DNA of 32,000 nt from assembly GCF_003044035.1 (NCBI RefSeq), contig NZ_NVQC01000009.1, positions 120,001 through 152,000 of the forward strand, in the 5' to 3' direction. The notes under the pieces were generated by a model, which was not told where the DNA came from, ran no database searches, and was given only the letters and a program-made list of their open reading frames with translations. This DNA is from Candidatus Methylomirabilis limnetica. GTDB taxonomy: Bacteria > Methylomirabilota > Methylomirabilia > Methylomirabilales > Methylomirabilaceae. Both the position numbers and the translations under genes were made by a program. Each line of letters begins with the position of its first letter. Position 1 is the stretch's first letter. This document shows, in pieces, positions 2,214 through 20,153 of the stretch.

Positions 2214-2333
2214 GCAGTTAATCCGGCCGCGTTCCGTAAAGCGCTCACAACGCTTTTCTTCCTTGACACTTCCTGGCGCTTTCCGATACAAGACAACGGT
2301 CACACGTGAATGCAGAGTTCTGGGAGAAGCGCG

Positions 2334-3753: not shown

Positions 3754-4156
3754 GATTCAGCTCTCAGCCCTTCAGCCGTGGCTGACCGCTGATGGTTGAT
3801 GACCGTTAGGAGCACTCGGTCGAGGTGAGAATACCTGACATGCATCAGAAATCCAACGGGCGAGATATACCGGAGCCACTTCCTGTAATCGGCGCGGAGA
3901 GAGAAAGGACCCGCCTTTTTTCCAGGTCGGTGTCAAAGTGTTTTAAAATATTTGGCGGAATACTCAGCATATGACAGCGAACCAACAGTGACTAATCCGC
4001 GGACCGCATAGTAGGCGTTTCATATTGGATATTCCGTGCATTGCCTATTAATCATGTGCTAAATGTAATGAAACCTTATCGTTTACGTCAAGTTGTTGTT
4101 TCGTCTTGACCGTGTAGAATCATCTGTGCTGTACTTATCCGTCCATCTAATAATTG

Positions 4157-4277
4157 GTTCTCCCTTCGCGTCGCTCAGGGAGAACGCGGAGCTGAGCCGG
4201 TACCTCTTCCCGCCGCTCCGCTCCAGGAGAACCAGAGGCACGAAACCGACCACTACGCGGCGGCTCAGCCCCGCGTT
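4157..4277 (+). repeat. Palindromic boundary repeat type C (attC-like mini-unit), copy 1
   Basis: The unit reads G|TTCTCCC-N13-GGGAGAAC GCGGAGCTGAGCCGG...CGGCTCAGCCCCGCG|TTAAAT. It is about 90% identical to 8164..8284, and homology to that copy starts at GTT and stops at GTTA. Confidence 0.8.
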
Positions 4278-4302
4278 AAATAATAGTCCGGCGTGGTGCA
4301 AC

Positions 4303-5481
4303 ATGGATGAGCTTCTTATTATACTTGGGTCTGGCGCTACTGCTGCCATAAGCGAGGGAACTTTGCCTGTCGGTAAAGATTTCTTTTCGTCTCGCAATTC
4401 TACTTGGTCTTCTAACAGTGCAGACTATCCTCACCTGGCTGCAGCTTGTCAAGAAGTCGCAGCCCTCAAGAGCTATTTTGGGGATCTGAATCCTGTATCC
4501 CTCACCGACGTATGGTTGTTCTTGGACACCGTGCTCAAGTATCACTCAGCAACAAGACAGAACAAGGACTATGACTATGACTTACTCAGGATCCGCTATG
4601 ACAAAATGGGCAAGGATGTTCCCATCTATCTCCAACTGGGCCATCTCAATGCCGCCTATTCTAGGCTCAGTGCTGGCATGCATCCTCTATTCTCACCGTT
4701 GCGTAAGAGGATATACGACACGCTCCCACAGGATGACGCAGTTGTCTACTTCCTCGTCGTTGCTGGCTGGGAGTTGAAGCACTTACTCTACAGAACTTAC
4801 GATCCAAGAGAAGCACCGTCAGGGATAGAACTGTATCGGCGCCTACTGGCGGAATTACAGGACTTGAAGGGTCACGCGGTTATCAGCTTCAACTACGATA
4901 TATTCTTCGAAATGTCATGCAGTAAGCCATTGCATCTTCTCGCGGAGGATCAAACTGCGGAAGGCGAAGGTGCAATAGACTTCTGTAAACCTCACGGGGG
5001 CTGGAACATCCGACATGTCGACAACTGCATTATGCCCTTCTGTAGCTTAACCAGGTTCGTCGAGGACACATCTTTTGACAAGCTACCAGACCGTGAGGAG
5101 AGACCAGCTATGATACCCTATTTTTCTTATCCTGACGAGATCGAGATACAGCACCGTGACCAATATCCACAGGTTGGGCAGTTCTTTCGTGACCAGCATC
5201 ACAAAATGAAGAAACTGTTTCAGAACGCGAAGAATGTGGTCTCCATAGGCTATTCATTCTCAAAAGATGACAGACACGTGAGAAGTATCGTGGAGAAAGA
5301 TCTACCGAGTAGCTTTGGCCGAGGCAAGAGAATGTTCTGCGCATTGAGAGGGAGTTCCTATAGAAAAGATATCATGGATCTCTGGAAGTTTGACGAGGAG
5401 GACGGCAAGACATTCAGTTACTATGGAAGCGGTTTCGAAAATACATGCATTGATAAGATCAAGACCTTCCTCAAGTATTAG
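4303..5481 (+). CDS. SIR2-like (SIR2_2-type) NAD-binding-fold protein, stand-alone
   Basis: Motifs occur in the order typical of the SIR2_2 family: LIILGSGATAA, ISFNYDIFFE, FCKPHGGWN, VVSIGYSFSKDDRHV. The start ATG at 4303 lies directly after the type C repeat. The 70 upstream codons of the tracked ORF run through the repeat. Confidence 0.6.
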   Translation: MDELLIILGSGATAAISEGTLPVGKDFFSSRNSTWSSNSADYPHLAAACQEVAALKSYFGDLNPVSLTDVWLFLDTVLKYHSATRQNKDYDYDLLRIRYDKMGKDVPIYLQLGHLNAAYSRLSAGMHPLFSPLRKRIYDTLPQDDAVVYFLVVAGWELKHLLYRTYDPREAPSGIELYRRLLAELQDLKGHAVISFNYDIFFEMSCSKPLHLLAEDQTAEGEGAIDFCKPHGGWNIRHVDNCIMPFCSLTRFVEDTSFDKLPDREERPAMIPYFSYPDEIEIQHRDQYPQVGQFFRDQHHKMKKLFQNAKNVVSIGYSFSKDDRHVRSIVEKDLPSSFGRGKRMFCALRGSSYRKDIMDLWKFDEEDGKTFSYYGSGFENTCIDKIKTFLKY

Positions 5482-5761
5482 GATTTGCCGGAGTGCATAT
5501 CTAGCCAGTCGTTCCAGACCGAATTTGACTCGCAGGCTCGCCAAATCGGCTGAACTTGGTCATTAGGCGGCAGTAGGCCGATGGGTATGTGATTCGGAGC
5601 GTTGCCCCCGTCAGGGAAGCAGGCCAGGATCCCGTTGAGTTCGGCGCCGAAGCGACCATCTGGAGGCTCCCTGGAAGCCGCACGTGAGGCGCCAGAGTGT
5701 AGGACGGTGGGTCTAGCCATGTATCCAGTACCGGGACATCATCGTGGGAGACATTATTAAA

Positions 5762-6541
5762 ATGAAAGGCAATTCGCCTCTCCGCCTTTTGGTCTCTCTC
5801 GTAGTTCTGGTGATCGGCGGTTGCAGCACGGTTTCCGTTCAACCGCCGTTAGGATCATCTACCGAACAAAAGCAGCACAAAGAGCGGTCCAACAATTACG
5901 AGATTGGCCGCGAGCAAGTGGCAAGCATCGGTGAGGCAGTCATCAGAGTTAAGGAATTCGAAGTCTTTGAAACCAGAGCTATCGATAGTGATCGCGTTGC
6001 CCCCGACAGAAATTTCGATGGCGTGTGTGAGCTTCCCGGACCCGACCTCAGGTTTCGCGGTACCAAAGACAAGCCGTTTCCGATTGCCGGTACGACACAA
6101 GCTAACAATGCGACGTATCGAATTATTGTGGTTGCAAGGAACCTGTCAGGTGAGTCTATCGGGGTGGCGTTGAACGCTGATTCTGGCGTGGCAGCCGGTC
6201 CGTGTGCCCATCGAACTCTTCTCGGGTGGCGATTAGTAGGCACAGCAAAGTTTTTATCGGCTGGTGGCCCACCGATTTTCTCGACCCCTACAAGGATTAC
6301 ACGCATCGTCGGGCAAATGGCTGGGCCGGACAACTTTGAATTGGTTTACTTAGGCATTACGAGACAATCGATGTCCCTTCTGTATCGAGAGTATACCGAT
6401 CAGGATTTCGCACGACCGGCGTTTTCGCAGACGCTAAACTATGACCTATCGGACTCTGATGTGATTGCGTTTCGTAAGCTTCGTATCCGAGTAATTAAAG
6501 CTGGCAATCAAGACATCCGGTATGTTGTTACAGCGAACTAG
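5762..6541 (+). CDS. Hypothetical lipoprotein
   Basis: MKGNSPLRLLVSLVVLVIGGC has a signal peptide with a lipobox (IGGC). No recognisable domain follows. Confidence 0.6.
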   Translation: MKGNSPLRLLVSLVVLVIGGCSTVSVQPPLGSSTEQKQHKERSNNYEIGREQVASIGEAVIRVKEFEVFETRAIDSDRVAPDRNFDGVCELPGPDLRFRGTKDKPFPIAGTTQANNATYRIIVVARNLSGESIGVALNADSGVAAGPCAHRTLLGWRLVGTAKFLSAGGPPIFSTPTRITRIVGQMAGPDNFELVYLGITRQSMSLLYREYTDQDFARPAFSQTLNYDLSDSDVIAFRKLRIRVIKAGNQDIRYVVTAN

Positions 6542-6650
6542 TGACCCTAAAACAGCGATAGGAATAACGCAAAAACCTTATGGGCCGCTCTGGGAGCGGA
6601 TATAAAGGGGTGTGCTCGACACAGTCCCTTTAACCCACAAGGTGAGACCC

Positions 6651-6800
6651 ATGATACGACAGACGGTGTTCCCTTTCAAGCTGCAACGGAGCGACGAGAC
6701 CTTGACCGCCCACGGAGGTTTGGCCCTGCTGGCCGAGTATAACCACAGTCTGGGGCTGCGGACCCTGGCTGATCGGCATCTGCCCAGTCCTAGAGAAAAA
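6651..6800 (+). pseudogene. N-terminal remnant of a DDE transposase (IS1380/IS4-like), cut off by the repeat motif
   Basis: MIRQTVFPFKLQRSDETLTAHGGLALLAEYNHSLGLRTLADRHLPSP resembles IS1380-type transposase N-termini as I remember them. The frame ends in the TAG of GAAAAATAGGG at 6795-6803. Confidence 0.5.
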
Positions 6801-7362
6801 TAGGGACAGACACTATTTATCGTGGTGATTCGTGGCGTGTACGGTCATGATCGTGCATTCCACGGATTACTCGAATCGTTGTACCCGGCCACCCGTATCA
6901 TGTGACGCGAAAATAGGGACAGACACTATTATCGTGACGATTCGTGGTGTTCGCGGTCATGATCGTGCAGGCCACGGATTGCTCGAATCGTTGCACATGG
7001 CCACCCGTATCATGTGACGCAACGAGGGAATTATCGCTAGGCGGCCTTTCGGCACGACAGCGATTCGAAAAATAGGGACAGACACTATTATCGTGACAAT
7101 TCGTGGTGCTCGTGGTCATTATCGTACATGTCATGGATTGCTGGAATGGTTGCACCAAGCCACCCGTATCATGTGACGCAACGAGGGAATTATCACCAGA
7201 CGGTTTTTCGGAACGACAGCGATTCGTAGGCACACGATGACAGAGCGACCACTGGGAAGAGATGGGTTCATCTGGGAGGTGCGCAGGAAACTGGGACGAG
7301 TAATACGCGTGTTGCAGAGGGGAAGGCCAAGACAGGACCTCAACGAATAGTGTCTGTCCTTA
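6795..7362 (+). repeat. Module A array: two 3'-truncated copies followed by one full 290-nt copy
   Basis: Each unit starts at GAAAA(A)TAGGGACAGACACTATT (TAGGG at 6801, 6914 and 7073). Unit 1 stops after ~108 nt and unit 2 after ~154 nt. Unit 3 runs to the inverted repeat AATAGTGTCTGTCCTTA at 7346-7362. Confidence 0.85.
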
Positions 7363-7486
7363 TACCCTACCCATCCGGCGAGGTGTCAGACTGCGTGTCC
7401 GGCATCTGGGATGAACTCGCGGCTGGCGCGCCAGGAGAAGACGCTCCGGCCGGGGTGCGCCTACCACCCTGACTGAATCTGCCGAA

Positions 7487-7558
7487 CCGCCGTATACGTG
7501 ATCCGTATGTACGGTGGCGTGGGAGGGGGGAGGCCGTGAGGCCCCTCCCTATCCCGAT
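7487..7558 (+). ncRNA. Group II intron domains V and VI (class C type)
   Basis: Domain V is CCGCCGUAUACGUGAUCCGUAUGUACGGUGG: a CGC triad, a 2-nt bulge on the 3' strand and a 5-bp upper stem. Domain VI is a G-rich/C-rich helix with a GUGA loop and a bulged A at 7551, which is 7 nt from the ...GAU end. Confidence 0.8.
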
Positions 7559-7573
7559 TGGTTTTTACGCAGA

Positions 7574-7603
7574 TTGACAACGATTGAAGATTCAGGCCAT
7601 ATT
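7574..7603 (+). promoter_or_regulatory. Candidate sigma70-type promoter for the phd-like gene
   Basis: TTGACA (7574-7579), an 18-nt spacer and CATATT (7598-7603) lie about 30 nt upstream of the start codon. This rests on a pattern match only. Confidence 0.3.
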
Positions 7604-7634
7604 TGGTACCACTAATGGACTGGAGGTTATCATA

Positions 7635-7922
7635 ATGAAAATTAAAGAAGACATTAAACCCATTTCTTATTTGAAGTCTCGGTCTGCTGATTTAATATCC
7701 CAAATTAACGAAACTCGTAGGCCAGTGATAATTACTCAGAATGGTGAACCTCGTGCAGTTATTCAGGACGCGGAGTCCTATGAAAAAACAATCAATTCTC
7801 TAAACTTAATGAGAATATTGGCGCATGGAGAGAAAGCCATCCAAAAAGGGGACACCATCAAACAAGAAGACCTTTTTAAGCGAATTGATGAAACCTTAAT
7901 GAAAAGGAAGACACATCAATAG
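7635..7922 (+). CDS. Phd/YefM-family type II antitoxin
   Basis: MKIKEDIKPISYLKSRSADLISQINETRRPVIITQNGEPRAVIQDAESYE is a Phd/YefM signature. An RBS (TGGAGG) lies 8 nt upstream of the ATG at 7635. Confidence 0.8.
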   Translation: MKIKEDIKPISYLKSRSADLISQINETRRPVIITQNGEPRAVIQDAESYEKTINSLNLMRILAHGEKAIQKGDTIKQEDLFKRIDETLMKRKTHQ

Positions 7923-7925
7923 ACC

Positions 7926-7987
7926 ATGAAAAGATTCGGGGTTGAGTGGGCTCAGCCAGCGAGTAATATAGAAATAGGCAAGGGAAA
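7926..7987 (+). pseudogene. Truncated RelE/ParE-like toxin gene (first ~20 codons only)
   Basis: An ATG lies 3 nt after the phd stop. It reads MKRFGVEWAQPASNIEIGKG and then runs straight into the repeat motif GAAATAGGGACAGACAC. The call rests on position and on the N-terminal pattern. Confidence 0.35.
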
Positions 7988-8166
7988 TAGGGACAGACAC
8001 TATTATTGTGCATGAATCGGTGTTCCAGAGGGCCGTCAAAGAGGCAAGGCTCAGGGCTGGCATAGAAAATATGGACAGCGACTATTTGTTTGGATTTGCC
8101 TGCATCGGCTGATAACCAGGGCATCAACTCGGACACGGCTTCGCCGCGTCGGTTATGCCCGCCGTT
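7985..8166 (+). repeat. Boundary repeat unit (hairpin motif, recombinase-like fragment, second hairpin motif, type B arm)
   Basis: The unit is collinear with 14288..14472. Its last ~100 nt are also collinear with 17941..18042. Homology ends at GCCCGCCG|TT (8158-8166). Confidence 0.85.
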
Positions 8167-8284
8167 CTCCCTTCGCTTCGCTCATGGAGAACGCGGGGCT
8201 GAGCCGGTGCCCCTTCCCTCCGCTCCGCTACGGGAGAACCAGGGGCACGAAACCGACCGCTTCGCGGCGGCTCAGCCCCGCGTT
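8164..8284 (+). repeat. Palindromic boundary repeat type C (attC-like mini-unit), copy 2
   Basis: GTTCTCC (8164-8170) is complementary to GGAGAAC (8186-8192). The perfect 17-nt arms AACGCGGGGCTGAGCCG (8190-8206) and CGGCTCAGCCCCGCGTT (8268-8284) pair with each other. An inner stem is GTGCCCCT/AGGGGCAC. Confidence 0.85.
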
Positions 8285-8348
8285 AGCTGACTTGTGCGAT
8301 TGCTTCGCGATCACAGTTCGTTCTGGTTAGACAAAGTGATTCAGAAAA

Positions 8349-8365
8349 TGGAATGTTTCATTCCA
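8349..8365. promoter_or_regulatory. Inverted repeat upstream of katG, candidate operator
   Basis: TGGAATG-TTT-CATTCCA lies about 40 nt upstream of the katG ATG. The regulator is unknown. Confidence 0.25.
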
Positions 8366-8376
8366 CGCAGCCGTAG

Positions 8377-10602
<2,226 letters not shown>

Positions 10603-10609
10603 GCGTGGT

Positions 10610-11085: not shown

Positions 11086-11375
11086 TAGGGACAGACACTA
11101 TTTATCGTGACAATTCGTGGTGTTGACGGTCATGATCGTGCATGCCACGGATTACCCGAACCGTTGCATCCGGCCACCCGTAGTCTGTGAGGCAACGGGT
11201 GAATGATCGCCAGGCGATCTTTCGAAACGATAGCGATTCGAATGCGTAAGATGACATAGCGGCCACTGCAAATAGACGGGGTCATCTGGGAGGTGCGCAG
11301 GAAACTGGATGAGTAATACACGTGTTGCAGAGGGGAGCACCAAGAAAGGATTTCAATAAATAGTGTCTGCCCCTA
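11081..11375 (+). mobile_element. Module A, solitary copy (290 nt, bounded by inverted repeats)
   Basis: The ends are TAGGGACAGACACTATT (11086-11102) and AATAGTGTCTGCCCCTA (ending at 11375). The interior is collinear with 7073-7362 and 16226-16517. No intron 5' or 3' parts flank this copy. Confidence 0.8.
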
Positions 11376-11573
11376 TATCCGAACGGTGGCGTTGCCGCTC
11401 CGCTGCGGCGGAATGGCAACGCCGAGCGGATCAAGGATCCGCTGGCTGGCCTCCACTTCGCTACGGTCAACCAGCGGATCTAGTGGACTACAGCTCAGCC
11501 GAGCAAGCTCGGCTCCGCTTCCGCCGCTCATCCGCGCGGTATTAGGCCGATTTTTAGTTGAAAGGAGCGATCC

Positions 11574-11717
11574 ATGAACCGTCAGTTCCCAATTCTTTCC
11601 GCCCTCTCGGTTGTTCCTCGAGCCCTTGGATGGCTCGTGCTCGCCGGTGGGGTTGAGTGGGGTTGGAAGTTCCTCTCTCCCCCTTGCCGGCGTCTCCGTA
11701 GTCATCGCCGCGGATGA
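11574..11717 (+). CDS. Possible 47-aa hydrophobic peptide
   Basis: A strong RBS (AAAGGAG) lies 7 nt before the ATG. The product is MNRQFPILSALSVVPRALGWLVLAGG.... I recognise no homology, and the ORF is too short for the ORF track. Confidence 0.2.
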   Translation: MNRQFPILSALSVVPRALGWLVLAGGVEWGWKFLSPPCRRLRSHRRG

Positions 11718-11788
11718 AATCGCCTATGGTTAGAACCATCGAATGTTCGCGCCGATTCCTCTGGCACGGTGCCTGCTTCTTCTCGGGC

Positions 11789-14251
11789 ATGGACCGAATC
11801 GCGCTCACCATCGCAATCGTCGTCGCTGCTCTCGGATCGGCGCACGCGACACCGCCCGTCGTCCCCGAGCCCGCGCCGATGTGCGTCGAGAACCCGCTCG
11901 AAGGCATGGAGCGGCCGCTCCGCGATACCTCCGAGTGCCCGAGCTTAGCGGCGACGGTCCGCACGATCCGCGCGGTCGCCGCCGAGTTCTTCAAGGACTG
12001 CTCGCTCGATCGCCCCGAGGTCGGGAGGAAATACTCGGAGATCGCCTCGCGCTACGTCGGCATGCCGCCGCAGACGGGTCTGCCAATGATGGTCGCCGAG
12101 TTCGCCTCCGAGGTCGGCAGTGACGGAACGCGCTGCGCGATCCGCGCCGTCGTCAAGGAGGGGTTGCCGGTCAGCAGCGAGACGCGGGAGCAGCTCGTAT
12201 CGGTCGTCAACGGGTTCTTCGAGGCGCAGGACGTCAAGGATCTCTTCGAAGACATCGCCGAGAGCGCGCCGCTGACCGCGGCCGCCAACTTAAAGCGCGA
12301 CGAGCTCTCCAGGAAGTTCGCCAACGAGCTGAACGACCGGGTCGCGGCGTCCGAGGAGCTCCGCGGGAACGCCAACGATTTTCAGTCGCTGAGAGCGAAG
12401 GTCATCTGGGCTATCACGGACGATTCGGCCCGGGCGCGTGCCGCACTCGGCGCGGTCGAGGAGTCGCTCGTTACGTGCAGGGTCGTGGAGGCGGCCAAGA
12501 GCCTCTCCGAAGCCGTAGCGGCCGGCCAGCGCGCCTTGCAAGGCGCGCGGCGCGAGATCCGTGCTTCCGAGAGGGCCGCGGAATGCGCGGAGATCAACCT
12601 TCGACTACAGTACGGCGAGGCCTGGAACCTACAACAAGCGGTCATCGCCGGACCGACGCTCGACCAGTATCGGAGCGTCGTGGCTGCGATCCAGAGGTTG
12701 AAGCAGGACGAAAAGGCGCTCGACGCGTTGCTGCGGCGAGCGGGCGAGAGCTGTCTGCGATTGAAGCAGCAGGTCGGGGTCCGCGACCGGCTGGTCGCCC
12801 ACCATACCGCCGCGAAGGCCCGCGCCATGGCTGCGATCGACGGACGCGCCTGCGACGGCTCGGGGATCGAGGAGGCCGCCGCCACGTTGCGCACTCTGGA
12901 AGGCGCCACCTGCGGCAACCAGGCGAAGCCCGCGGCCAACGAGGTTCTGACCAGGCGCGCGGTGCTCCGCGACGAGCTGCGGCAGAGCGGCGAGTGCAGC
13001 GCGGCGGCGGGCGTGGGTGCGGGCGAGTTCCAGGGCCCGTGGCAATGCCCGCAGCGAGGCACGCTCATGCTCCAGGGAAGCGCAACCGGGGTCAGCGGGT
13101 CGGTGAGCGGCCGCCCAGGCGAGCACTGGGGGACGGGCCAACGTGAGGGAGGGCGGATCGGCGGAACCGTGGAGGGCCGCACGCTTCGCTTGACGATGGA
13201 ATCTGGCGACGGGACCACGAGCCGCATGACGGCGACGTTGTCAATGGACGGGCGCACGATGTCCGGCCCTTGGGAGTGGTTCCGCGGCCCCGCCCGATTG
13301 GACGGTGGCACGTGGAGCTGTCAGCGGCCGGCGGGTTACGCCGGCGGAGGGACTGCTGCGGGGAGAGAGACGGCTTCGCGCAGGACCGCTCGGGTGCCCG
13401 ATATGGTCATTCCCGTCGCGGGGCACGTTGCCAGAACCGGCGGCGGAACCGATCCGTATCAGACGCTCACCGTGCGCGCCCACATCGAGCCCGAGCGGAT
13501 CTCGTGGATCGCATGGAATGACCGACGCGACGTCTCGCTCGTCGTCGCGTCGCGGCCGAACCAGAAGCTGCTAGGTCCAGGGGGCTTCGGAACCGACGAC
13601 TACATCGATCTGACCGTCACGGACCCGTTGGGACGCTCGATGACCGTCAAGATGGATCAGAACGACAAGTACGGCGCATCCTACGGGCCACAGAATCTCA
13701 TCCTCGGATCTCGCGCCAACGCGCCCGCCGCCTACCGCAAGATCCCGTTCGGCCCGACGGCGGGCCAGGAGCTGTTCTTCGACCAGGACGGGGCCTTCAA
13801 CTCGCTGTTCACGAAGGCGGGTCAGTACACGTTCACGTTCGCGTTTCGAGACAACGAGGGGGGCAGGACGGGGTATGGGCACACGAGCATCTTCCTCATC
13901 ATCGCCGCCAGGCAGTCGGCACTCGAAGGCACCGCGGCGAGCGGCGCTCCGGTCGCGCCGGGTTCGAAGAGTCTCTCGTTTGGCGGACGCGTGCTCGACG
14001 TGAGGTACGAGCGCCAGACCGATGAGCGAGGCGTACCGATCGATCTCTACTTCTACCGCACGGCAGCGCCCCCGGGCGTTCCCGCACCCGCCGGCGAGGC
14101 CCAGTGGAGCCGCTTCGTGCGCGTTCCGGCGGACGGGGGCGACTCGAGCGAGCCGGCGGTCTGGTGGCACTCGCGCTGGGAATTCGGTCCAAACGGCTGG
14201 ACGTCGATGGGCGAGAAGGACGTCGCGCCGCCGCAAGCGGTGACGCCGTAA
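11789..14251 (+). CDS. Large secreted hypothetical protein (helical/coiled N-terminal half, beta-rich C-terminal half)
   Basis: The signal peptide is MDRIALTIAIVVAALGSAHA. The frame stays open for 820 codons in a very GC-rich stretch. I recognise no domain. Confidence 0.6.
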   Translation: MDRIALTIAIVVAALGSAHATPPVVPEPAPMCVENPLEGMERPLRDTSECPSLAATVRTIRAVAAEFFKDCSLDRPEVGRKYSEIASRYVGMPPQTGLPMMVAEFASEVGSDGTRCAIRAVVKEGLPVSSETREQLVSVVNGFFEAQDVKDLFEDIAESAPLTAAANLKRDELSRKFANELNDRVAASEELRGNANDFQSLRAKVIWAITDDSARARAALGAVEESLVTCRVVEAAKSLSEAVAAGQRALQGARREIRASERAAECAEINLRLQYGEAWNLQQAVIAGPTLDQYRSVVAAIQRLKQDEKALDALLRRAGESCLRLKQQVGVRDRLVAHHTAAKARAMAAIDGRACDGSGIEEAAATLRTLEGATCGNQAKPAANEVLTRRAVLRDELRQSGECSAAAGVGAGEFQGPWQCPQRGTLMLQGSATGVSGSVSGRPGEHWGTGQREGGRIGGTVEGRTLRLTMESGDGTTSRMTATLSMDGRTMSGPWEWFRGPARLDGGTWSCQRPAGYAGGGTAAGRETASRRTARVPDMVIPVAGHVARTGGGTDPYQTLTVRAHIEPERISWIAWNDRRDVSLVVASRPNQKLLGPGGFGTDDYIDLTVTDPLGRSMTVKMDQNDKYGASYGPQNLILGSRANAPAAYRKIPFGPTAGQELFFDQDGAFNSLFTKAGQYTFTFAFRDNEGGRTGYGHTSIFLIIAARQSALEGTAASGAPVAPGSKSLSFGGRVLDVRYERQTDERGVPIDLYFYRTAAPPGVPAPAGEAQWSRFVRVPADGGDSSEPAVWWHSRWEFGPNGWTSMGEKDVAPPQAVTP

Positions 14252-14287
14252 ACAGCGTAAAAATAAAAATAAAATAGGAAAAATAGG

Positions 14288-14472
14288 AATAATAGGGACA
14301 GACACTATTTATCGTGAATGACTCGATGATCCAGAAGGCCGTCAAGGAGGCAAGGCTCAGGGCTGGCATGGAAAATAGGGACAGCGACTATTTGTTTAGA
14401 TTTGCCTGCATCGGCTGATAACCAGGACATCAACTCGGACACGGCTTCGCCACGCCGGTTATGCCCGCCGTT
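14288..14472 (+). repeat. Boundary repeat unit (hairpin motif, recombinase-like fragment, second hairpin motif, type B arm)
   Basis: The unit is collinear with 7985..8166 and ends at GCCCGCCG|TTATGCG (G at 14470). Stuttered partial starts (AAAATAGG AAAAATAGG AATAATAGGG) precede it at 14271-14297. Confidence 0.85.
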
Positions 14473-14551
14473 ATGCGCCTTAAAAATAAATCCTTCAAAT
14501 AATCCAATGAATGTGTATGATATAGTTATATATACACATAGGAGGTAAGGT

Positions 14552-14746
14552 ATGAGAACGAATGTAGTCATAGATGACGATCTGATGGAATCCGCCCTCA
14601 AGGTGTCCGGCCTCAGAACAAAAAAGGATGCCATAGAAGAGGGGTTGAAACTGTTGGTGCAAGTCAAACGCCAGAAAGAAATTAAGCGGTTTCGAGGAAA
14701 ACTCAAATGGTCTGGTAATCTCGACGAGATGAGGTTAGACAAATGA
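14552..14746 (+). CDS. vapB: VapB-family type II antitoxin
   Basis: MRTNVVIDDDLMESALKVSGLRTKKDAIEEGLKLL is typical of the VapB/DUF2191 type. Its stop overlaps the vapC start by 4 nt. Confidence 0.8.
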   Translation: MRTNVVIDDDLMESALKVSGLRTKKDAIEEGLKLLVQVKRQKEIKRFRGKLKWSGNLDEMRLDK

Positions 14747-15138
14747 TTCTCGTTGATTCGTCCGTCTGGATCGACTACTTCAACGGCAATAAAACGTCTC
14801 AGACGGACTGGCTGGACTCTTCACTTGGAAATACACCCATCATCATAGGTGATCTTATCCTAACCGAAGTTCTTCAGGGATTTCAGAACGATAAAGACTT
14901 TAAGACAGCCAGGGATATTCTCTTAGGTATCCCATTTATGTCGATGGGAGGACAGGTATTAGCCCTAGAGAGCGCCATGAACTATAGATTGTTGAGGAGA
15001 AAAGGCGTGACGGTAAGGAAGACCATAGACGTCATGATTGGAACTTTCTGTATCCACCACCAGCAAACATTGTTGCATGATGACAGGGATTTCGATCCGA
15101 TAGTTAAGTTCTTAGGCCTGAAGACAATAGTCACATAA
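14743..15138 (+). CDS. vapC: VapC PIN-domain toxin
   Basis: MILVDSSVWIDYFNG...DLILTEVLQG...HDDRDFD contains the PIN acidic residues in the usual order. Confidence 0.85.
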   Translation: MILVDSSVWIDYFNGNKTSQTDWLDSSLGNTPIIIGDLILTEVLQGFQNDKDFKTARDILLGIPFMSMGGQVLALESAMNYRLLRRKGVTVRKTIDVMIGTFCIHHQQTLLHDDRDFDPIVKFLGLKTIVT

Positions 15139-15316
15139 CCAATCAAACCACCGGACCCTCGTTCCTCGTGCCGGTGATCTTTTCGTTGGCTCGTAAAATG
15201 AATACTGTGGAGAAAAACAAATATGCAGGCACAAAACGAAACATTATCTGAGAGTGCCGCTGAAGGGCGCGTCTCTCAGCGTCGTACTCCAGAACCGTAA
15301 CTAACGGAGGTGACAC

Positions 15317-15793
15317 TTGAAAAATAGGGTTTATATCGAAACTTCGGTTATTAGTTATCTCACGGCACGCCCAAGCAACGACATCCGTGCAATAGCCAAT
15401 CAGAATGTCACCATCGAGTGGTGGGAGACGCAGCGGCTCAATTTCGATTTATTCATATCGGAGTTTGTCGTTGCTGAAGTAAGTCTTGGGCATCCTGACG
15501 CCGTAAAGCGACGTCTTGAGGCAATCGCCGACATTATGGAGCTGGAAGCAACAGAAGAGGTCCGGGTGCCGGGCCAGGAACTTATCCGGCGCAACGTTTT
15601 GCCCGCAAATGCCGAAATTGACGCTTATCATGTGGCTATTGCTACCGTGAACGGCATCGAATATCTTCTGACCTGGAATTGCACTCATATTGCTAATGCT
15701 CATACACGGCCAAAGATTGAGGCCACCTGTCGGGCGCTTGGTTACGAGCCGCCCATCATCTGCACACCGCAAGAACTAACGGAGGAGGTTTAG
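15317..15793 (+). CDS. PIN-like domain protein (toxin-type)
   Basis: The start is TTG with a GGAGGTG RBS. MKNRVYIETSVISYL...AEIDAYHVAIATVNGIEYLLTWNCTHI matches a PIN-like family that is usually paired with a small downstream gene. Confidence 0.65.
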   Translation: MKNRVYIETSVISYLTARPSNDIRAIANQNVTIEWWETQRLNFDLFISEFVVAEVSLGHPDAVKRRLEAIADIMELEATEEVRVPGQELIRRNVLPANAEIDAYHVAIATVNGIEYLLTWNCTHIANAHTRPKIEATCRALGYEPPIICTPQELTEEV

Positions 15794-15795
15794 CT

Positions 15796-16032
15796 ATGTG
15801 GCAAGACCCTATCGTCAAGGAGACGCGTACACTTAGAGAAGAATACGCCAATCAGTTCGATCACAATGCTGACGCGATATTTCAAGACATTTTGCGAAGG
15901 CAAGCCGCATCTGGTAAAAAACTGGTTTCTTTCAAGCATCGCAAACCTGTGCCATCGAAAATTGCAGCAAAACAGGAAAGACCAGTTTCAAGCTTACACA
16001 CTTCAACGGCTGCAATAAAACAGAGCAAATGA
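15796..16032 (+). CDS. Small partner protein of the PIN-like gene (putative antitoxin, reversed gene order)
   Basis: It starts 2 nt after the PIN stop. MWQDPIVKETRTLREEYANQFDHNADAIFQDILRRQAASGKKLVSF resembles small proteins that commonly sit next to such PIN genes. Confidence 0.5.
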   Translation: MWQDPIVKETRTLREEYANQFDHNADAIFQDILRRQAASGKKLVSFKHRKPVPSKIAAKQERPVSSLHTSTAAIKQSK

Positions 16033-16094
16033 GCGAACGTCCAACCAGCGGCTCGACACCGACCGGGCTTCGCCCGGGCAGCTCAGCCCGCCGT
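16033..16094 (+). repeat. Boundary-repeat right arm (type C-like) forming the intron 5' exon
   Basis: ...ACCGACCGGGCTTCGCCCGGGCAGCTCAGCCCGCCGT resembles the right arm of type C (AACCGACCGCTTCGCGGCGGCTCAGCCCCGCGT) and contains the stem CCGGGC/GCCCGG. A weaker relative lies at about 11466-11510. Confidence 0.6.
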
Positions 16095-16220
16095 GTGTGC
16101 CGGGCATGGCACAGAACTGACGGGGTGCAAGTCCCCGTGCCAGGTTTAAGCAGAGCCGAAGGCTAGGAGAAGGGCAAGAGCCTGCCCCGGACTCGATCCG
16201 GGGGCGTCATCGTGAGGTGG

Positions 16221-16517
16221 GAAAATAGGGACAGACGCTATATATTGTGACGAGTCGTGGTGTTTACCGTCATGACCCGCGCCTTGCTACGGATTACCTG
16301 AACCGTTGTACCCGGCCACCCGTATCATGTGATGCAACGAGGGAATGATCACCAGGCGGTCTTTCGGCACGACAGCGATTCGAAGGCACACGATGACAGA
16401 GCGGCCACTACGAAGAGACGGGTTCATCTGGGATGTGCGCAGGAAACTGGACGAGTAATACACATGTTGCAGAGGGGAACACTAAGAAAGGATCTCAATA
16501 AAGAGTGTCTGTCCCTA
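16221..16517 (+). repeat. Module A copy nested in intron domain I
   Basis: The copy runs from GAAAATAGGGACAGACGCTAT... to ...AGAGTGTCTGTCCCTA. The flanking intron sequence GGUGGG/CCCAgCC could close a helix around it, so it appears to sit in a hairpin loop. Confidence 0.8.
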
Positions 16518-16636
16518 TACCCAGCCGGCGAGGTACCAGACTGCGTGCCCGGCATCTGGGATGAACTCGCGGCTGGCGCGCCAGGAGAAGACGCTCCGGT
16601 TGTGATGCGCATACCACCCTGACGGAATCTGCCAAG

Positions 16637-16708
16637 CCGCCGTATACGTGATCCGTATGTACGGTGGTGTGGGAGGGGAGAGGCCGTGAGGACTCCCCCT
16701 GTCCCGAT
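16637..16708 (+). ncRNA. Group II intron domains V and VI
   Basis: Domain V (CCGCCGUAUACGUGAUCCGUAUGUACGGUGG) is identical to the copy at 7487. The domain VI helix differs from the other copy by one apparently compensatory pair. The position of the bulged A is a G here (16701). Confidence 0.8.
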
Positions 16709-16775
16709 TCTCCCTTCCCTCCGCTCCGGGAGAACCATGGGCACGAAACCGACCGCCTTGCGACACATGGGAGCT
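16709..16775 (+). repeat. Degenerate, internally deleted type C repeat (intron 3' exon)
   Basis: TCTCCCTTCCCTCCGCTCCGGGAGAACCATGGGCACGAAACCGACCGCC is type C with a deletion between two CCCTTC direct repeats. The right arm has diverged. Confidence 0.65.
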
Positions 16776-16780
16776 GAAAG

Positions 16781-17884
16781 ATGCCTTCTCTTTTTCAATG
16801 GAACGACACGTTTCTGACCCATATTGACTCCGTTGATGAACAGCATCAGCGACTGGTTGGCCTGATTAACCAGCTTGGCGACATGGTGATGTCTGGCAAG
16901 GATTTTGATCCTCAGTCGCTTGCCTCGGTTCGTGACAGCATCCTGAACTATGCGATCGTTCATTTCGGTGACGAAGAGGCATTGATACGCACTGCGGGGC
17001 TTGATCCGAGATATCTCCAACGACAGTATTCCGACCATAAGGTCTTCATGCACGAAGCCACTGTTCTGGGAGACAAGGAGAGCACTCTCTCCATAGAAAA
17101 GATCATGCGTCTGGAAAACTACCTTGTCTATTGGCTAGTCCGTCATATCCTTGAAGTTGACCATAGCATGGTCCGCCAGATCCATGCTATGCGCGAGGGA
17201 AAGACACCAACCGAGGCGTTCGATCTGGAAAACGAGCTGCAGAACTCCAGCGCCGAACCCCTGTTGTCGGCAATGAATGGGCTGTTCCTCGTTGTCTCCG
17301 AGCGCAATCGTGAACTCTACGCCTTGAACCGTGATCTGGAACAACGCGTGGAGCAGCGAACGATGGAGCTGGAGCAAGCCAACCGGGAGTTGCAACTGCA
17401 GTCCACGCACGATGATCTGACGGGATTGCCCAACCGCCGATTCGCCATGCTCAGCCTCGACCAGCTATGGAAGGAGCGACAACGTTATGGCGAGCCGCTT
17501 TCCCTGCTGTTGCTCGACGCCGACCATTTTAAGCAGGTAAACGATAGTTTTGGCCACGCCCAAGGTGACGAACTCCTCCGGATTATCGCCGAGCGTTTGC
17601 GCCAGTCCGTGCGTGCCAGCGACATTGTCCACCGCCTCGGCGGCGATGAGTTTCTGGTGATCTGTCCAAGGAGCGACCGAGAGGGTGCCACGGTAGTCGC
17701 CAACAAGATCCTGACTGAATCCAGACCATTGCAAACCGCGGAAGGTGTGGAATGCTGGGATGGATCCTTGAGTATTGGCATTGCCGAGTGTAACAGCTCC
17801 ATGGCCCGGCATGAAGATCTGCTGAAAGCCGCCGATCAGGCCATGTACCTTGCAAAAAGCAAGGGTGGCGGATGCGCAGTCTGA
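16781..17884 (+). CDS. Hemerythrin-domain diguanylate cyclase (GGDEF)
   Basis: The N-terminus WNDTFLTHIDSVDEQHQRLVGLIN is of the bacteriohemerythrin type. A coiled linker follows. The C-terminal domain carries DDLTGLPNRR...LLLLDADHFKQVND..GH..GD...RLGGDEFLV, an intact GGDEF motif. Confidence 0.85.
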   Translation: MPSLFQWNDTFLTHIDSVDEQHQRLVGLINQLGDMVMSGKDFDPQSLASVRDSILNYAIVHFGDEEALIRTAGLDPRYLQRQYSDHKVFMHEATVLGDKESTLSIEKIMRLENYLVYWLVRHILEVDHSMVRQIHAMREGKTPTEAFDLENELQNSSAEPLLSAMNGLFLVVSERNRELYALNRDLEQRVEQRTMELEQANRELQLQSTHDDLTGLPNRRFAMLSLDQLWKERQRYGEPLSLLLLDADHFKQVNDSFGHAQGDELLRIIAERLRQSVRASDIVHRLGGDEFLVICPRSDREGATVVANKILTESRPLQTAEGVECWDGSLSIGIAECNSSMARHEDLLKAADQAMYLAKSKGGGCAV

Positions 17885-17940
17885 ACATCGAAAGTGAGGG
17901 CAGGAAATATGAGAATTGGATTGCGTGAAGGTGGAATTGA

Positions 17941-18042
17941 GAAAATAGGGACAGCGACTATTTGTTTAGAGTTGCCTGCATTGGCTGATAACCAGGACAT
18001 CAGCTCGGACACGGCTTCTCCGCGCCGATTATGCCCGCCGTT
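17941..18042 (+). repeat. Boundary repeat (hairpin motif variant plus type B arm) at the right end of the island
   Basis: The repeat runs from GAAAATAGGGACAGCGACTATTTGTTTAGAG... to ...GATTATGCCCGCCG|TTGAGCGC. The G|TT junction (18040/18041) is 8 nt from the mfnF-like stop codon. Confidence 0.85.
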
Positions 18043-18048
18043 GAGCGC

Positions 18049-20129: not shown

Positions 20130-20153
20130 CGTGGAGAAGGAGCGATTACTGCC

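What the first reader, a model, noticed from the sequence alone, without database searches (positions are those of the whole stretch)
3754..18048. 14.3-kb unidirectional cassette-like island splits a methanofuran/H4MPT cofactor operon
- **Operon split.** mfnD-like, mfnF-like and mfnE-like genes are all on the minus strand and would form one operon. About 14.3 kb of foreign DNA separates mfnF from mfnE.
- **Right junction.** The right junction is a repeat that ends at G|TT, 8 nt from the mfnF stop.
- **One orientation.** All credible ORFs inside the island are on the + strand: SIR2-like, lipoprotein, phd, katG, kinase, 820-aa secreted protein, vapBC, PIN with its partner, and hemerythrin-GGDEF.
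- **Mosaic composition.** Blocks alternate between visibly AT-rich (3754-8300, 14250-16030) and very GC-rich (8400-14250) composition.
- **Shared separators.** The blocks are separated by members of one repeat family.
- **Interpretation.** This looks like stepwise accretion of cassettes at one site rather than a single acquired element.
Basis: partly seen in the sequence, partly recalled or inferred. Interest (0 to 1): 0.7.

Follow-up and report, generated by a model that had tools for sequence, protein, structure and literature searches.

The report
Integrase-less integron array splitting mfn operon
The 14.3-kb island between two methanofuran-synthesis genes of the methane oxidiser Candidatus Methylomirabilis limnetica is an integron-type gene-cassette array that keeps its insertion site (attI) and attC sites but has no integrase gene within the 32 kb, a known kind of element not so far reported for this phylum as far as my two literature searches show.

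Summary
The genome is Candidatus Methylomirabilis limnetica (NC10).

**Operon split.** mfnF-like and mfnE-like genes overlap by 4 nt in one relative. They lie 16 and 108 nt apart in two others. Here 14.3 kb separate them.

**What the island is.** It is an integron cassette array without an integrase gene.
- A 120-nt module at its left end (4040-4159) is homologous to the region beside true integron-integrase genes in metagenome contigs. It ends in TAATAAYTGG|TT.
- At least seven hairpin repeats of five sequence types are attC sites.
- The B-type repeat recurs at 92-99% identity in 35 metagenome contigs. In three of them it lies 0.4-1.2 kb from an integron integrase (TIGR02249).
- In 30 different contexts the repeat is followed by G|TTRRRY and then by unrelated sequence.
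- Homology with other Methylomirabilis arrays breaks at these GTT points in four separate places.
- Six related populations carry different cassettes at the same site.

**Later decay.** REP/RAYT elements and short intI fragments have invaded the array.

The separators are not one repeat family, and "SIR2-like" is only weakly supported.

**Verdict.** This is a new member of a known kind (CALIN, or decayed chromosomal integron). Interest is moderate.

The parts
3040..3753 (-). mfnE-like amino-acid-kinase gene. This is the left chromosomal flank and occupies the position where intI sits in the homologous integrons.
   Evidence: Pfam AA_kinase. NCBIfam best match MfnE, 110 bits. In L010 it overlaps the mfnF stop codon by 4 nt.
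3754..4039 (.). Spacer between mfnE and the attI module. Bases 3779-3994 are extra relative to L007 and L237.
   Evidence: blastn of the island against L007 and L237. Absent from the empty site in L010. GC 0.47 for 3754-4157.
4040..4159 (+). attI-like module ending in TAATAATTGG|TT. The predicted crossover is G4157|T4158.
   Evidence: Alignment A4. It is homologous to the region between intI and the first attC in L227 and L178. TAATAAYTGGTT is invariant in 8 sequences. The window, L237 and L007 diverge immediately after GTT.
4160..4277 (+). B-type attC with no ORF between it and attI. Hairpin 4183-4277; R' box GTTAAAT; G4275|T4276.
   Evidence: bottom-strand z -3.8. 73-93% identical to B copies in metagenome contigs, mostly 85-93%. 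R' box matches GTTRRRY at 7 of 7 positions.
4297..5481 (+). Cargo ORF of 394 aa, with weak SIR2/DrmC-like matches only.
   Evidence: No Pfam or NCBIfam hit. PADLOC SIR2 E 5e-4.
5744..6541 (+). Cargo ORF of 265 aa. The N-terminus looks like a lipoprotein signal (LVVLVIGGCS); I read this from the sequence and did not test it. No family assigned.
6612..6803 (+). N-terminal fragment of an IS1380-type DDE transposase, cut off by the REP at 6800.
   Evidence: Weak Pfam DDE_Tnp_1_4 match to profile positions 13-49 (E 0.07). The ORF runs into the REP motif.
6795..7559 (+). REP-flanked, internally deleted RAYT element with an internal tandem duplication (REPs at 6800, 6913, 7072 and 7363-), followed by a 190-nt tail that is repeated at 16518-16709.
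   Evidence: It retains a match to the C-terminal coding end of a RAYT. The L108 RAYT reaches NF047646 at 80.6 bits.
7584..7922 (+). Phd/YefM antitoxin gene with no toxin partner detected.
   Evidence: Pfam PF02604, E 1.4e-16.
7985..8106 (+). D3 module: REP1, then a 60-nt intI fragment (encodes ...HESVFQRAVKEARLRAGI), then REP2.
   Evidence: The longer intI remnant in L167/L239 starts with the same sequence.
8107..8166 (+). A-type attC. G8164|T8165.
   Evidence: The same element sits between two TA cassettes in L007.
8165..8284 (+). B-type attC, directly abutting the A-type site with no ORF between them. Hairpin 8190-8284; R' box GTTAGCT; G8282|T8283.
   Evidence: Perfect 17-bp stem. Fold -38.4 kcal/mol, z -5.7. 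92-99% identical over at least 118 nt to copies in 24 metagenome contigs, three of which carry intI.
8283..10706 (+). katG cassette: catalase-peroxidase gene 8407-10602 and its own attC 10655-10706 (R'' AGCTAAC, R' GTTGGGC).
   Evidence: TIGR00198, 1217 bits. attC fold z -5.9, with unpaired T and G on the 3' arm of the bottom strand. Homology with L145 ends at GTT 10706.
10705..11541 (+). AAA_33 kinase cassette. The gene's 3' end is cut by a REP-flanked RAYT remnant (11080-11380). A degenerate attC-like hairpin lies at about 11465-11547; this boundary is uncertain.
   Evidence: Pfam AAA_33 matches profile positions 1-110 of 143 only. REP positions. The hairpin resembles the f and B2 types but ends in ATTAGGC.
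11714..14251 (+). Cargo ORF of 845 aa, GC-rich, with no family assigned.
14287..14472 (+). D3 module (REP1, intI fragment, REP2) followed by A-type attC 14413-14472. G14470|T14471.
   Evidence: blastx of the fragment alone against IntI_L198 residues 280-307: E 1e-5 in a two-protein database. blastx of the whole window gave a longer hit, residues 279-315, E 0.003.
14471..15187 (+). vapBC cassette (VapB 14552-14746, PIN 14743-15138) with a short attC 15146-15187. G15185|T15186.
   Evidence: Pfam. The block 14373-15189 is 96.5% identical to one in L237/L181. The homology ends 2 nt after this GTT.
15186..16095 (+). Cassette with a PIN-domain gene (15317-15793), a 78-aa partner (15796-16032) and f-type attC 16040-16095, which ends in GTG rather than GTT.
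   Evidence: Weak Pfam PIN match. The f-type site also lies directly after mfnF in L007.
16220..16762 (+). REP-flanked RAYT remnant (16220-16518), a 190-nt tail, and a truncated B-type attC remnant (16711-16762).
   Evidence: It encodes GHPYHVMQRGN, which resembles the N-terminus of the L108 RAYT.
16781..17884 (+). Hemerythrin-GGDEF diguanylate cyclase gene. This is the last cargo gene.
   Evidence: Pfam GGDEF, E 1.3e-43; Hemerythrin, E 4.8e-5.
17879..18042 (+). Diverged D3 module followed by A-type attC 17983-18042. G18040|T18041.
18041..18048 (.). Fixed distal flank TTGAGCGC between the last crossover point and the mfnF stop codon.
   Evidence: The flank is TTGARCGC next to mfnF in L221, L007, L004, L253 and L251. 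L182 has a more diverged TTGACCGC. The attC sites joined to it are unrelated to one another.
18049..19083 (-). mfnF-like gene. This is the right chromosomal flank.

Best explanation
**What it is.** The island is a chromosomal integron cassette array that has lost its integrase. In current terms it is a CALIN that still has its attI.

**Layout.** An attI module (4040-4159) sits next to mfnE. From it runs a co-oriented array of cassettes. Each cassette ends in an attC hairpin whose crossover point is G|TT. The last attC is joined to TTGAGCGC and then the mfnF stop codon.

**Inferred history.**
- Cassettes were added at attI by an integron integrase of the type found beside homologous attI and attC modules in other bacteria. 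They were removed by attC x attC excision.
- That activity made the array differ between Methylomirabilis populations while both ends stayed fixed.
- REP-associated tyrosine-transposase (RAYT) elements later inserted into the array. They truncated the kinase gene, an IS transposase gene and an intI gene.
- Short pieces of that intI survive in the D3 repeats.

**Shown here.** The anatomy, the homologies, the breakpoints and the between-strain variation.

**Inferred, not shown.**
- That IntI catalysed these events.
- Whether any IntI still acts on the array in trans.
- That mfnE is now transcribed from a promoter of its own within 3754-4100.
For: 1. **Empty site.** L010, L252 and L254 have mfnF and mfnE adjacent.
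2. **Different arrays at the same site.** L007, L253, L251, L004, L237/L181, L221 and L182 all differ in content.
3. **Link to integron integrases.** The B-type repeat occurs in 35 metagenome contigs. In L227 and L178 it lies about 0.4 kb from a divergently oriented integron integrase (TIGR02249, 372 bits, cut-off 265). In L198 it lies 1.2 kb downstream of one (483 bits).
4. **attI homology.** Window 4040-4159 aligns with the intI-proximal region of L227 and L178. TAATAAYTGGTT is invariant, and sequences diverge right after GTT.
5. **R' box consensus.** In 30 distinct contexts after the B-type repeat the bases are G, T, T (29/30), R (27/30), R (22/30), R (26/30), Y (25/30), then random. This is the attC R' box GTTRRRY.
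6. **Breakpoints.** Four independent homology breakpoints fall at GTT: 4159, 10706, 15187 and 18040-18042. In L221 a different, textbook attC (GCCTAAC...GTTGAGC) is joined to the identical TTGAGCGC-TTA-mfnF flank.
7. **Fold.** The hairpins fold as R box, unpaired spacer, L stem. The A-type sites fold better on the bottom strand. In the katG site an unpaired T and G lie on the 3' arm of the bottom strand. z is -5.9 (katG site) and -5.7 (B site).
8. **Cassette properties.** All cargo is co-oriented, compositionally heterogeneous and rich in toxin-antitoxin genes.
9. **Integrase remnant.** The D3 repeats contain a piece of intI. A longer remnant (residues 281-357, E 6e-23 against that locus alone) with the same 5' sequence is in L167/L239.
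Against: - There is no integrase gene in the 32-kb window. I found none attributed to Methylomirabilis, so present-day activity is unproven.
- Several 'cassettes' are atypical. 4276-8164 holds three or four genes and no recognisable internal attC. Two attC sites follow another site with no ORF between. The f-type site ends in GTG and the site near 11541 ends in ATT.
- The A-type and vapC-type hairpins are not more stable than shuffled sequence (z -0.7 to -2.6).
- R'' boxes match RYYYAAC poorly at the B-type and A-type sites (4 and 3 of 7), but well at the katG, vapC-type and f-type sites (6, 6 and 7 of 7).
- I could not run the standard attC covariance model (IntegronFinder).
- How an attI without intI came to lie exactly between two overlapping genes is not explained.
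Confidence: 0.85

Rival explanations
1. A complete integron, or a ready-made array, was acquired once as a single block. The differences between strains reflect only later deletions, REP/RAYT insertions and homologous recombination, not stepwise integrase-mediated capture at this site.
For: - Both end junctions are shared by genomes whose MfnF is 82-89% identical: the attI module in the window, L007 and L237, and TTGARCGC in the window, L007, L004, L221, L253 and L251. This points to one ancient founding event.
- No intI is nearby.
- The D3+A modules are near-identical repeats that could drive homologous recombination.
Against: - Arrays in L007, L253, L251, L237 and L221 contain mostly unrelated cargo, not subsets of one another.
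- Unrelated attC types are each joined at the same nucleotide to the distal flank. That is the product expected of site-specific recombination, not of random deletion.
- The cassettes range from 0.37 to 0.66 GC.
Confidence: 0.1
2. The island is a classical integrative genomic island, or a series of them. Each was inserted by a phage-type tyrosine recombinase that targets the 3' end of mfnF and carries a replacement copy of that end.
For: L007 (11788-11918) and L237 (3221-3400) contain a second copy of the last 130-180 nt of mfnF inside their arrays.
Against: - There is no such duplication in the window and no direct repeats flanking the whole island.
- No integrase or excisionase gene is present.
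- The internal mfnF fragments in L237 and L007 are themselves preceded by an attC ending G|TTGAACGC. They therefore look like displaced copies of the distal junction.
- Breakpoints are at attC crossover points.
Confidence: 0.03
3. The REP/RAYT system built the island. The ATAGGGACAG...CTAT repeats are the functional separators, and a Y1 (HUH) transposase moved the blocks.
For: - 13 REP copies, all inside the island.
- Three internally deleted RAYT elements.
- An intact Y1_Tnp gene in the L007 island.
Against: - REPs lie inside cassettes and truncate genes: the kinase, the IS1380 fragment and intI.
- Homology breakpoints coincide with attC GTT points, not with REPs.
- The katG, vapBC and PIN cassettes have no REP at their ends.
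- RAYTs are not known to move cargo genes (established knowledge of REP/RAYT systems).
Confidence: 0.02

Closest known systems
CALIN (cluster of attC sites lacking an integron-integrase), as defined with IntegronFinder (Cury et al. 2016, PMC4889954)
   Same: - At least seven co-oriented attC sites with cargo between them.
- No intI within reach.
- Toxin-antitoxin cassettes.
- A remnant of intI nearby. [quoted passage not shown]
   Different: - It retains a recognisable attI module.
- It sits exactly between two genes that overlap in relatives.
- Some 'cassettes' hold several genes.
- It has been invaded by REP/RAYT elements.
Sedentary chromosomal integrons at a fixed locus, for example the Vibrio superintegron and the Xanthomonas integrons (bioRxiv 10.1101/2025.06.18.660453; the rest from general knowledge)
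   Same: - Fixed chromosomal position across a lineage.
- Array content differs between strains.
- TA cassettes.
- attC sites that recur within the array.
- The integrase can decay.
   Different: - No integrase gene at all next to attI; mfnE sits in its place.
- The attC sites are of several unrelated types rather than one species-specific repeat.
- The B-type attC and the attI are 87-99% identical to those of integrons in contigs of very different base composition (GC 0.44).
Cassette insertion at genomic attG sites, and SALINs (Loot et al., bioRxiv 10.1101/2022.09.11.507474)
   Same: - Integron cassettes lie outside a complete integron.
- The junction falls at a G|TT-type triplet.
- The insertion sits between chromosomal genes.
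   Different: An attI module is present at the proximal end, which attC x attG insertion does not deliver. The array is long.
REP sequences and REP-associated tyrosine transposases (RAYT; NCBIfam NF047646)
   Same: - The 17-mer with AT-rich flanks occurs as inverted pairs that bracket a RAYT gene in L108.
- It also occurs as close inverted pairs in many genomes.
   Different: Here only deletion derivatives and solo REPs remain. They are passengers of the array, not what built it.

Membership tests
Integron (complete) | An integron-integrase gene (intI; tyrosine recombinase with the IntI-specific insertion; TIGR02249) adjacent to the array | tested here: not met
   - No tyrosine recombinase among the ORFs of the 32-kb window.
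- blastx of the whole window against two IntI proteins finds only 17-50-aa fragments in the D3 repeats.
Integron (complete) | An attI site next to the first cassette, with crossover at G|TT | tested here: met
   - Window 4040-4159 is homologous to the intI-proximal region of L227 and L178.
- TAATAAYTGGTT is invariant.
- Downstream sequences diverge right after GTT in the window, L237 and L007.
- Function was not tested.
Integron (complete) | A cassette promoter (Pc) reading into the array | tested here: inconclusive
   - The consensus scan of 3700-4400 found one site only, on the minus strand and pointing at mfnE (4091-4062). That is not more than in shuffles.
- Conserved TTGACC and TATAAT-like blocks are visible in alignment A4, but they were not tested.
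CALIN / integron cassette array | Two or more attC sites: imperfect inverted repeats R''-L''...L'-R', with R' = GTTRRRY and crossover at G|TT | tested here: met
   - R' boxes in the window: GTTAAAT, GTTAGCT, GTTGGGC, GTTATGC, GTTGGCT and GTTGAGC score 6-7 of 7. GTTCTCC scores 4 of 7 and the f-type GTGTGTG 3 of 7.
- The consensus after 30 B-type copies is G TT R R R Y.
- R'' boxes match RYYYAAC less well at the B-type and A-type sites (4 and 3 of 7); the katG, vapC-type and f-type sites score 6, 6 and 7 of 7.
CALIN / integron cassette array | attC folds as a single-strand hairpin with unpaired spacer and extrahelical bases on the bottom strand | tested here: met
   - DNA-parameter folds: the katG site has an unpaired T and G on the 3' arm of the bottom strand, z -5.9.
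- B site: z -5.7 and -3.8.
- A sites fold better on the bottom strand than on the top strand, but with weak z (-0.7 to -2.6).
- This is prediction only.
CALIN / integron cassette array | The same attC family is found in arrays next to a bona fide intI elsewhere | tested here: met
   B-type attC copies 97-98% identical to window 8164-8285 lie 0.4-1.2 kb from TIGR02249-positive genes in L227, L178 and L198.
CALIN / integron cassette array | Cassettes behave as modules: content varies between genomes, with breakpoints at the attC crossover | tested here: met
   - Breakpoints at 4159, 10706, 15187 and 18040|41.
- Different arrays in seven related loci.
CALIN / integron cassette array | Detection by the curated attC covariance model of IntegronFinder | not testable with these tools
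   - The model is not available here, and Rfam has no attC family (one search found nothing in the window).
- My own alignment of the hairpins gave a poor RNAalifold consensus, because the stems are offset between types.
REP / RAYT system | Short palindromic repeat in inverted pairs flanking a Y1 (HUH) transposase of the RAYT family | tested here: met
   - In L108, inverted copies at 3748(+) and 4477(-) flank ORF 3761-4438, which reaches NF047646 at 80.6 bits (cut-off 80).
- In the window only deleted derivatives remain.
- tblastn with the L007 Y1_Tnp protein found nothing significant in the window.
Methanofuran biosynthesis genes mfnD/mfnF/mfnE | Score above the curated equivalog cut-off | tested here: not met
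   - MfnE 110 bits (cut-off 300), MfnF 217 (cut-off 520), MfnD 138 (cut-off 400).
- The mfnF-like protein does pass TIGR03123 'probable H4MPT-linked C1 transfer pathway protein' (332 against 244).
- The genes are bacterial homologues, hence '-like'.

The most novel reading that the evidence does not exclude
The array is not a fossil. An attI-bearing cassette array without an integrase, lodged inside an essential cofactor operon, may still be serviced in trans by integron integrases of a class shared at over 80% identity among MAGs attributed to Nitrospirota, Thermodesulfovibrionales, Syntrophales and Brocadiaceae.

If so, NC10 methanotrophs take part in an inter-phylum cassette exchange network in anoxic freshwater and groundwater. 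Near-identical attC and attI modules would be the common currency of that network. Oxygen-related cargo (KatG, hemerythrin-GGDEF) would be recruited in this way.

A further possibility is that REP/RAYT elements preferentially colonise integron arrays, because both systems work on single-stranded hairpins.
Probability: 0.25. Interest if true: 0.65.

Novelty: new member of a known kind. Interest (0 to 1): 0.5.

Why it matters
- **Extends integrons to NC10.** It shows integron-type gene capture in the NC10 nitrite-dependent methanotrophs. My two literature searches found no description of integrons in this phylum.
- **A well-documented intI-less array.** Few arrays lacking intI come with an empty site, a conserved attI, fixed end junctions and several strain variants. 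This bears on the open question of where CALINs come from.
- **Ecologically plausible cargo.** The array carries a catalase-peroxidase and a hemerythrin-linked diguanylate cyclase, in an organism described in the literature as producing oxygen internally and living at oxic-anoxic boundaries (general knowledge, not tested here).
- **Evidence of cassette traffic.** attC and attI modules up to 98-99% identical occur in contigs of very different composition. This suggests cassettes move between phyla.
- **Otherwise ordinary.** The element follows known integron rules.

Tried and rejected
- **Pfam on short peptides.** The repeat-encoded peptides gave nothing usable.
- **PDB sequence search.** The D3 peptide did not hit any integrase. 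The intI origin was established only later, through the longer remnant in L167/L239.
- **DNA-level alignment of D3 to intI genes.** Not better than the best shuffle.
- **Is the A-type hairpin decayed intI coding sequence?** I considered this and dropped it. There is no detectable homology beyond the 60-nt fragment.
- **Genome-contig scan with the REP 17-mer.** By my own estimate about 550 matches are expected by chance in 596 Gb, so it contains many chance hits. It did not return the M. limnetica genome. It was useful only for showing the REP/RAYT family.
- **Fuzzy-regex scan.** Timed out; replaced by blastn-short.
- **RNAalifold on a MAFFT alignment of 16 attC-like sites.** It gave only 7 pairs, because the stems are offset between types. 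I therefore built no covariance model.
- **My heuristic AAC...GTT hairpin scanner.** It found the katG and B sites but missed the weaker A sites, and it gave some hits inside genes. It is not a validated detector.
- **Exact look-ups of five L239 proteins.** None found, so that contig's organism is unknown.
- **Searches for an IntI attributable to Methylomirabilis.** None found.
- **Short 'IntI C-terminal' proteins.** In the two cases checked, these are frameshifted intI gene calls in other contigs, not a family of mini-proteins.
- **Rfam.** No match in the window.

Full report
**Source and flanks.**
- The mfnF-like protein is 100% identical to one named from Candidatus Methylomirabilis limnetica, of the NC10 phylum.
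- Left of the island lie a UbiD gene, a 4-HFC-P synthase gene (mfnB-like, 2310-3068 +) and an amino-acid-kinase gene (3040-3753 -).
- Right of it lie a hydantoinase-A-family gene (18049-19083 -), an ATP-grasp gene (19080-20402 -) and a PTPS gene.
- NCBIfam ranks MfnE, MfnF and MfnD as best matches for the three genes, all below the equivalog cut-offs. The mfnF-like protein passes TIGR03123.

- The + strand reads ...GCCCGCCG|TTGAGCGC|TTA at 18033-18051, so the G|TT is 8 nt from the mfnF stop codon.
- All ORFs with a family match or a gene call inside 3754-18048 are on the + strand.
- GC ranges from 0.37 (phd) and 0.43 (vapBC cassette) to 0.65-0.66 (katG and 845-aa cassettes). The flanks are 0.58-0.61.
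- Repeats are abundant. The 17-mer ATAGGGACAGMSRCTAT occurs 13 times, only between 6800 and 17961, against 0.01 expected.

**The synteny test.** I looked up contigs that encode homologues of the mfnF-like protein.

| State | Locus | MfnF identity | What lies between mfnF and mfnE |
|---|---|---|---|
| Empty | L010 | 78% | Genes overlap by 4 nt (ATGA) |
| Empty | L252 | 78% | 108-nt spacer |
| Empty | L254 | 60% | 16-nt spacer |
| Occupied | L007 | 83% | About 5 kb: HicB, a deaminase, ParE/Phd, ParD/ParE, a Y1 transposase |
| Occupied | L253 | 82% | 2.8 kb of toxin-antitoxin genes |
| Occupied | L251 | 80% | HicB, haem-related genes and others |
| Occupied | L004 | 87% | Other content again |

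- Metagenome contigs L237/L181, L221 and L182 are further variants.
- The site is therefore empty in the more distant relatives.
- It is occupied by different DNA in the closer ones.

**What the separators are.** Three unrelated systems are mixed together.

*(i) attC sites.* These are hairpin repeats with an AAC...GTT frame. The table lists eight sites of five types plus a ninth, degenerate one.

| Type | Position in the window |
|---|---|
| B (95-nt hairpin) | 4183-4277 and 8190-8284, plus a truncated remnant at 16711-16762 |
| A (about 53 nt) | 8114-8166, 14420-14472, 17990-18042 |
| f | 16043-16095 |
| katG site | 10655-10706 |
| vapC site (short) | 15146-15187 |
| Degenerate site | near 11465-11547 |

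I scanned the metagenome collection with a pattern shared by the A, B and f types. It returned B-type copies in 35 contigs and A-type copies in 3.
- In L227 and L178 the nearest B copy lies about 0.4 kb from a divergently oriented gene that scores 372 bits on TIGR02249 (integron integrase, cut-off 265).
- In L198 a 483-bit integron integrase lies 1.2 kb upstream of a B copy.
- After the B repeat, 30 different downstream contexts read G, T, T (29/30), purine (27/30), purine (22/30), purine (26/30), pyrimidine (25/30), then random sequence.
- That is the canonical R' box GTTRRRY, with the cassette boundary at G|TT.

With DNA energy parameters the sites fold as R box, unpaired spacer, L stem.
- The katG site has an unpaired T and G on the 3' arm of the bottom strand (z -5.9). 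This resembles the layout I recall for attC of aadA7 (from memory, not checked here).
- The B sites have z -5.7 and -3.8.
- The A sites fold better on the bottom than on the top strand but are weak (z -0.7 to -2.6).

*(ii) REP/RAYT.* The 17-mer, with A-rich and T-rich flanks, occurs in genomes of many phyla. It often forms close inverted pairs.
- In L108 an inverted pair flanks an ORF that reaches the NCBIfam model for REP-associated tyrosine transposases (80.6 bits, cut-off 80).
- The window's units at 6800-7363, 11085-11376 and 16225-16518 are REP-flanked and keep matches to one or both coding ends of such a gene: GHPYHVMQRGN... in the 16225 unit and ...VLQRGRPRQDL in the 6800-7363 unit. They lack the middle.
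- They truncate the AAA_33 kinase gene (profile positions 1-110 of 143) and an IS1380-like transposase fragment.

*(iii) An intI fragment.* The D3 repeat (7985-8106, 14287-14412, diverged at 17879-17982) has this order: REP1, a 60-nt segment encoding ...HESVFQRAVKEARLRAGI, REP2, then the A-type attC.
- blastx of the whole window against two integron integrases puts its best hit at 14314-14463, aligned to residues 279-315 of IntI_L198 (E 0.003).
- In L167/L239 the same sequence, again starting at a REP, continues through residues 281-357 of an IntI with one frameshift (E 6e-23 against that locus alone).
- D3 is therefore a piece of a decayed integrase gene, cut on both sides by REPs.

**The attI module.** Window 4040-4159 aligns with the sequence between intI and the first attC in L227 and L178. 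It also aligns with five further contigs.
- Conserved blocks include ACGTCAAG, TTGACC and an invariant TAATAAYTGGTT at the end.
- Right after GTT (4157-4159) the window continues with a B-type attC. L237 continues with an unrelated ORF of about 290 aa that I did not characterise, and L007 with other sequence.
- The module is also present next to mfnE in L007 and L237. It is absent from the empty sites.

**Breakpoints.**
- Homology with L145 (3' end of katG plus its attC) stops at GTT 10706.
- The block 14373-15189, which holds the vapBC cassette, is 96.5% identical to one in L237. Homology stops 2 nt after GTT 15185-15187.
- L221 carries a different, textbook attC: GCCTAAC-AAGTC-GCTCAAGC...GCTTAGC-TTATC-GTTGAGC. 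It is joined at the same nucleotide to TTGAGCGC-TTA-mfnF.
- L007, L004, L253 and L251 each have yet another hairpin joined to TTGARCGC; L182 has one joined to a more diverged TTGACCGC.
- Fixed ends with unrelated attC sites joined at one nucleotide are what attC x attC excision and attI x attC insertion produce (established integron mechanism).

**Most likely history** (inferred).
1. One ancient event placed an integron platform between mfnF and mfnE in the ancestor of the lineages whose MfnF is at least about 80% identical. The shared end junctions argue for a single founding event.
2. Integrase-mediated turnover then diversified the array.
3. The integrase gene is no longer next to attI; mfnE occupies that position.
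4. REP/RAYT elements invaded afterwards.

Several things remain unknown.
- **Current activity.** The L227-type IntI family is over 80% identical among proteins from MAGs named Syntrophales, Nitrospira, Thermodesulfovibrionales and Brocadia. None in the best 120 is named Methylomirabilis.
- **mfnE expression.** mfnE must now have its own promoter. The only consensus match points the right way (4091-4062, minus strand) but is no more than chance gives.

**What does not fit neatly.**
- The stretch 4276-8164 holds several genes with no recognisable internal attC. A conserved non-coding block at 5566-5710 recurs in L004 and L229 and may be a decayed site.
- Two B-type sites follow another site with no ORF between them.
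- The three cassettes ending in the same D3+A module are not explained by simple cassette logic.
- Internal copies of the mfnF 3' end occur in L007 and L237.

**Comparison and verdict.**
- The element works like an integron array.
- It meets the definition of a CALIN (Cury et al. 2016, PMC4889954), with the extra feature of a retained attI.
- It resembles sedentary chromosomal integrons at a fixed locus.
- It fails the test for a complete integron because intI is absent.
- It is a new member of a known kind.

Noticed in passing
window 21651-21947 (+): The phosphoribulokinase gene is reduced to a 98-aa N-terminal remnant (Pfam PRK positions 2-68 of 196) between the PTPS and GAPDH genes. Relatives L007, L010, L253 and L254 have a full 328-331-aa PRK there. 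glpX, present between the transketolase and pterin-4a genes in L007, L010 and L251, is also missing in the window. This could mean loss or relocation of Calvin-cycle genes in M. limnetica.
   Followed up: partly
L007 11788-11918; L237 3221-3400: A second copy of the last 130-180 nt of mfnF lies inside the cassette arrays of two relatives. In L237 it is preceded by the same ...G|TTGAACGC junction, as if the distal junction had been duplicated or displaced. Not explained.
   Followed up: partly
L011-L130 (for example L015 1386-1434, L021 3565-3612, L108 3748-4493): The REP core ATAGGGACAG(A/C)(C/G)(A/G)CTAT, with A-rich and T-rich flanks, is conserved across Omnitrophota, Nitrospirota, Elusimicrobiota, Planctomycetota, Desulfobacterota and NC10. 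It often forms inverted pairs 12-45 nt apart. In L108 such a pair flanks a RAYT gene. This is unusually wide conservation for a REP sequence.
   Followed up: partly
window 7985-8166, 14287-14472, 17879-18042; also L237 2204-2401, L221 668-875: The composite module REP1, intI fragment, REP2, A-type attC recurs as a unit at the 3' end of unrelated cassettes. L007 13260-13360 holds only the REP2 plus A-type attC part. In every copy seen, REP2 lies about 20 nt upstream of the A-type attC. Why unrelated cassettes share this end is unexplained.
   Followed up: partly
L227 4937-5057 and 94-215; L178 54-176; window 8164-8285: B-type attC copies 97-98% identical to the window's lie in a contig with GC 0.44 and AT-rich flanking genes, next to an IntI whose 90% cluster carries the names Brocadiaceae and Nitrospinota. 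This suggests the same attC and attI modules circulate between very different organisms. MAG names are only tentative evidence.
   Followed up: partly
L167 947-1494; L198 5382-7801; L256 8255-9327: Integrons of a second type (IntI_L198-like) have intI in the same orientation as the downstream attC or cassettes. In L167 the site ...CTCAATGGTT|CTCCC precedes the first B-type attC. The intI fragments in the window derive from this type, whereas its attI resembles the divergent L227 type.
   Followed up: no
window 7368-7559 and 16518-16709: A 190-nt sequence, 91% identical between the two copies, follows two of the RAYT remnants. It contains a GC-rich hairpin (GGGAGGGGGGAGGCCGTGAGGCCCCTCCC). It also occurs in L253 (7828-7961). 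Its function is unknown and it has no Rfam match.
   Followed up: no
window 5566-5710: A non-coding block between the first two cargo ORFs is 79-82% identical to sequence in L004 (15084-15225) and L229 (1018-1157), both of which hold array-type repeats. It may be a decayed attC or another mobile module.
   Followed up: no
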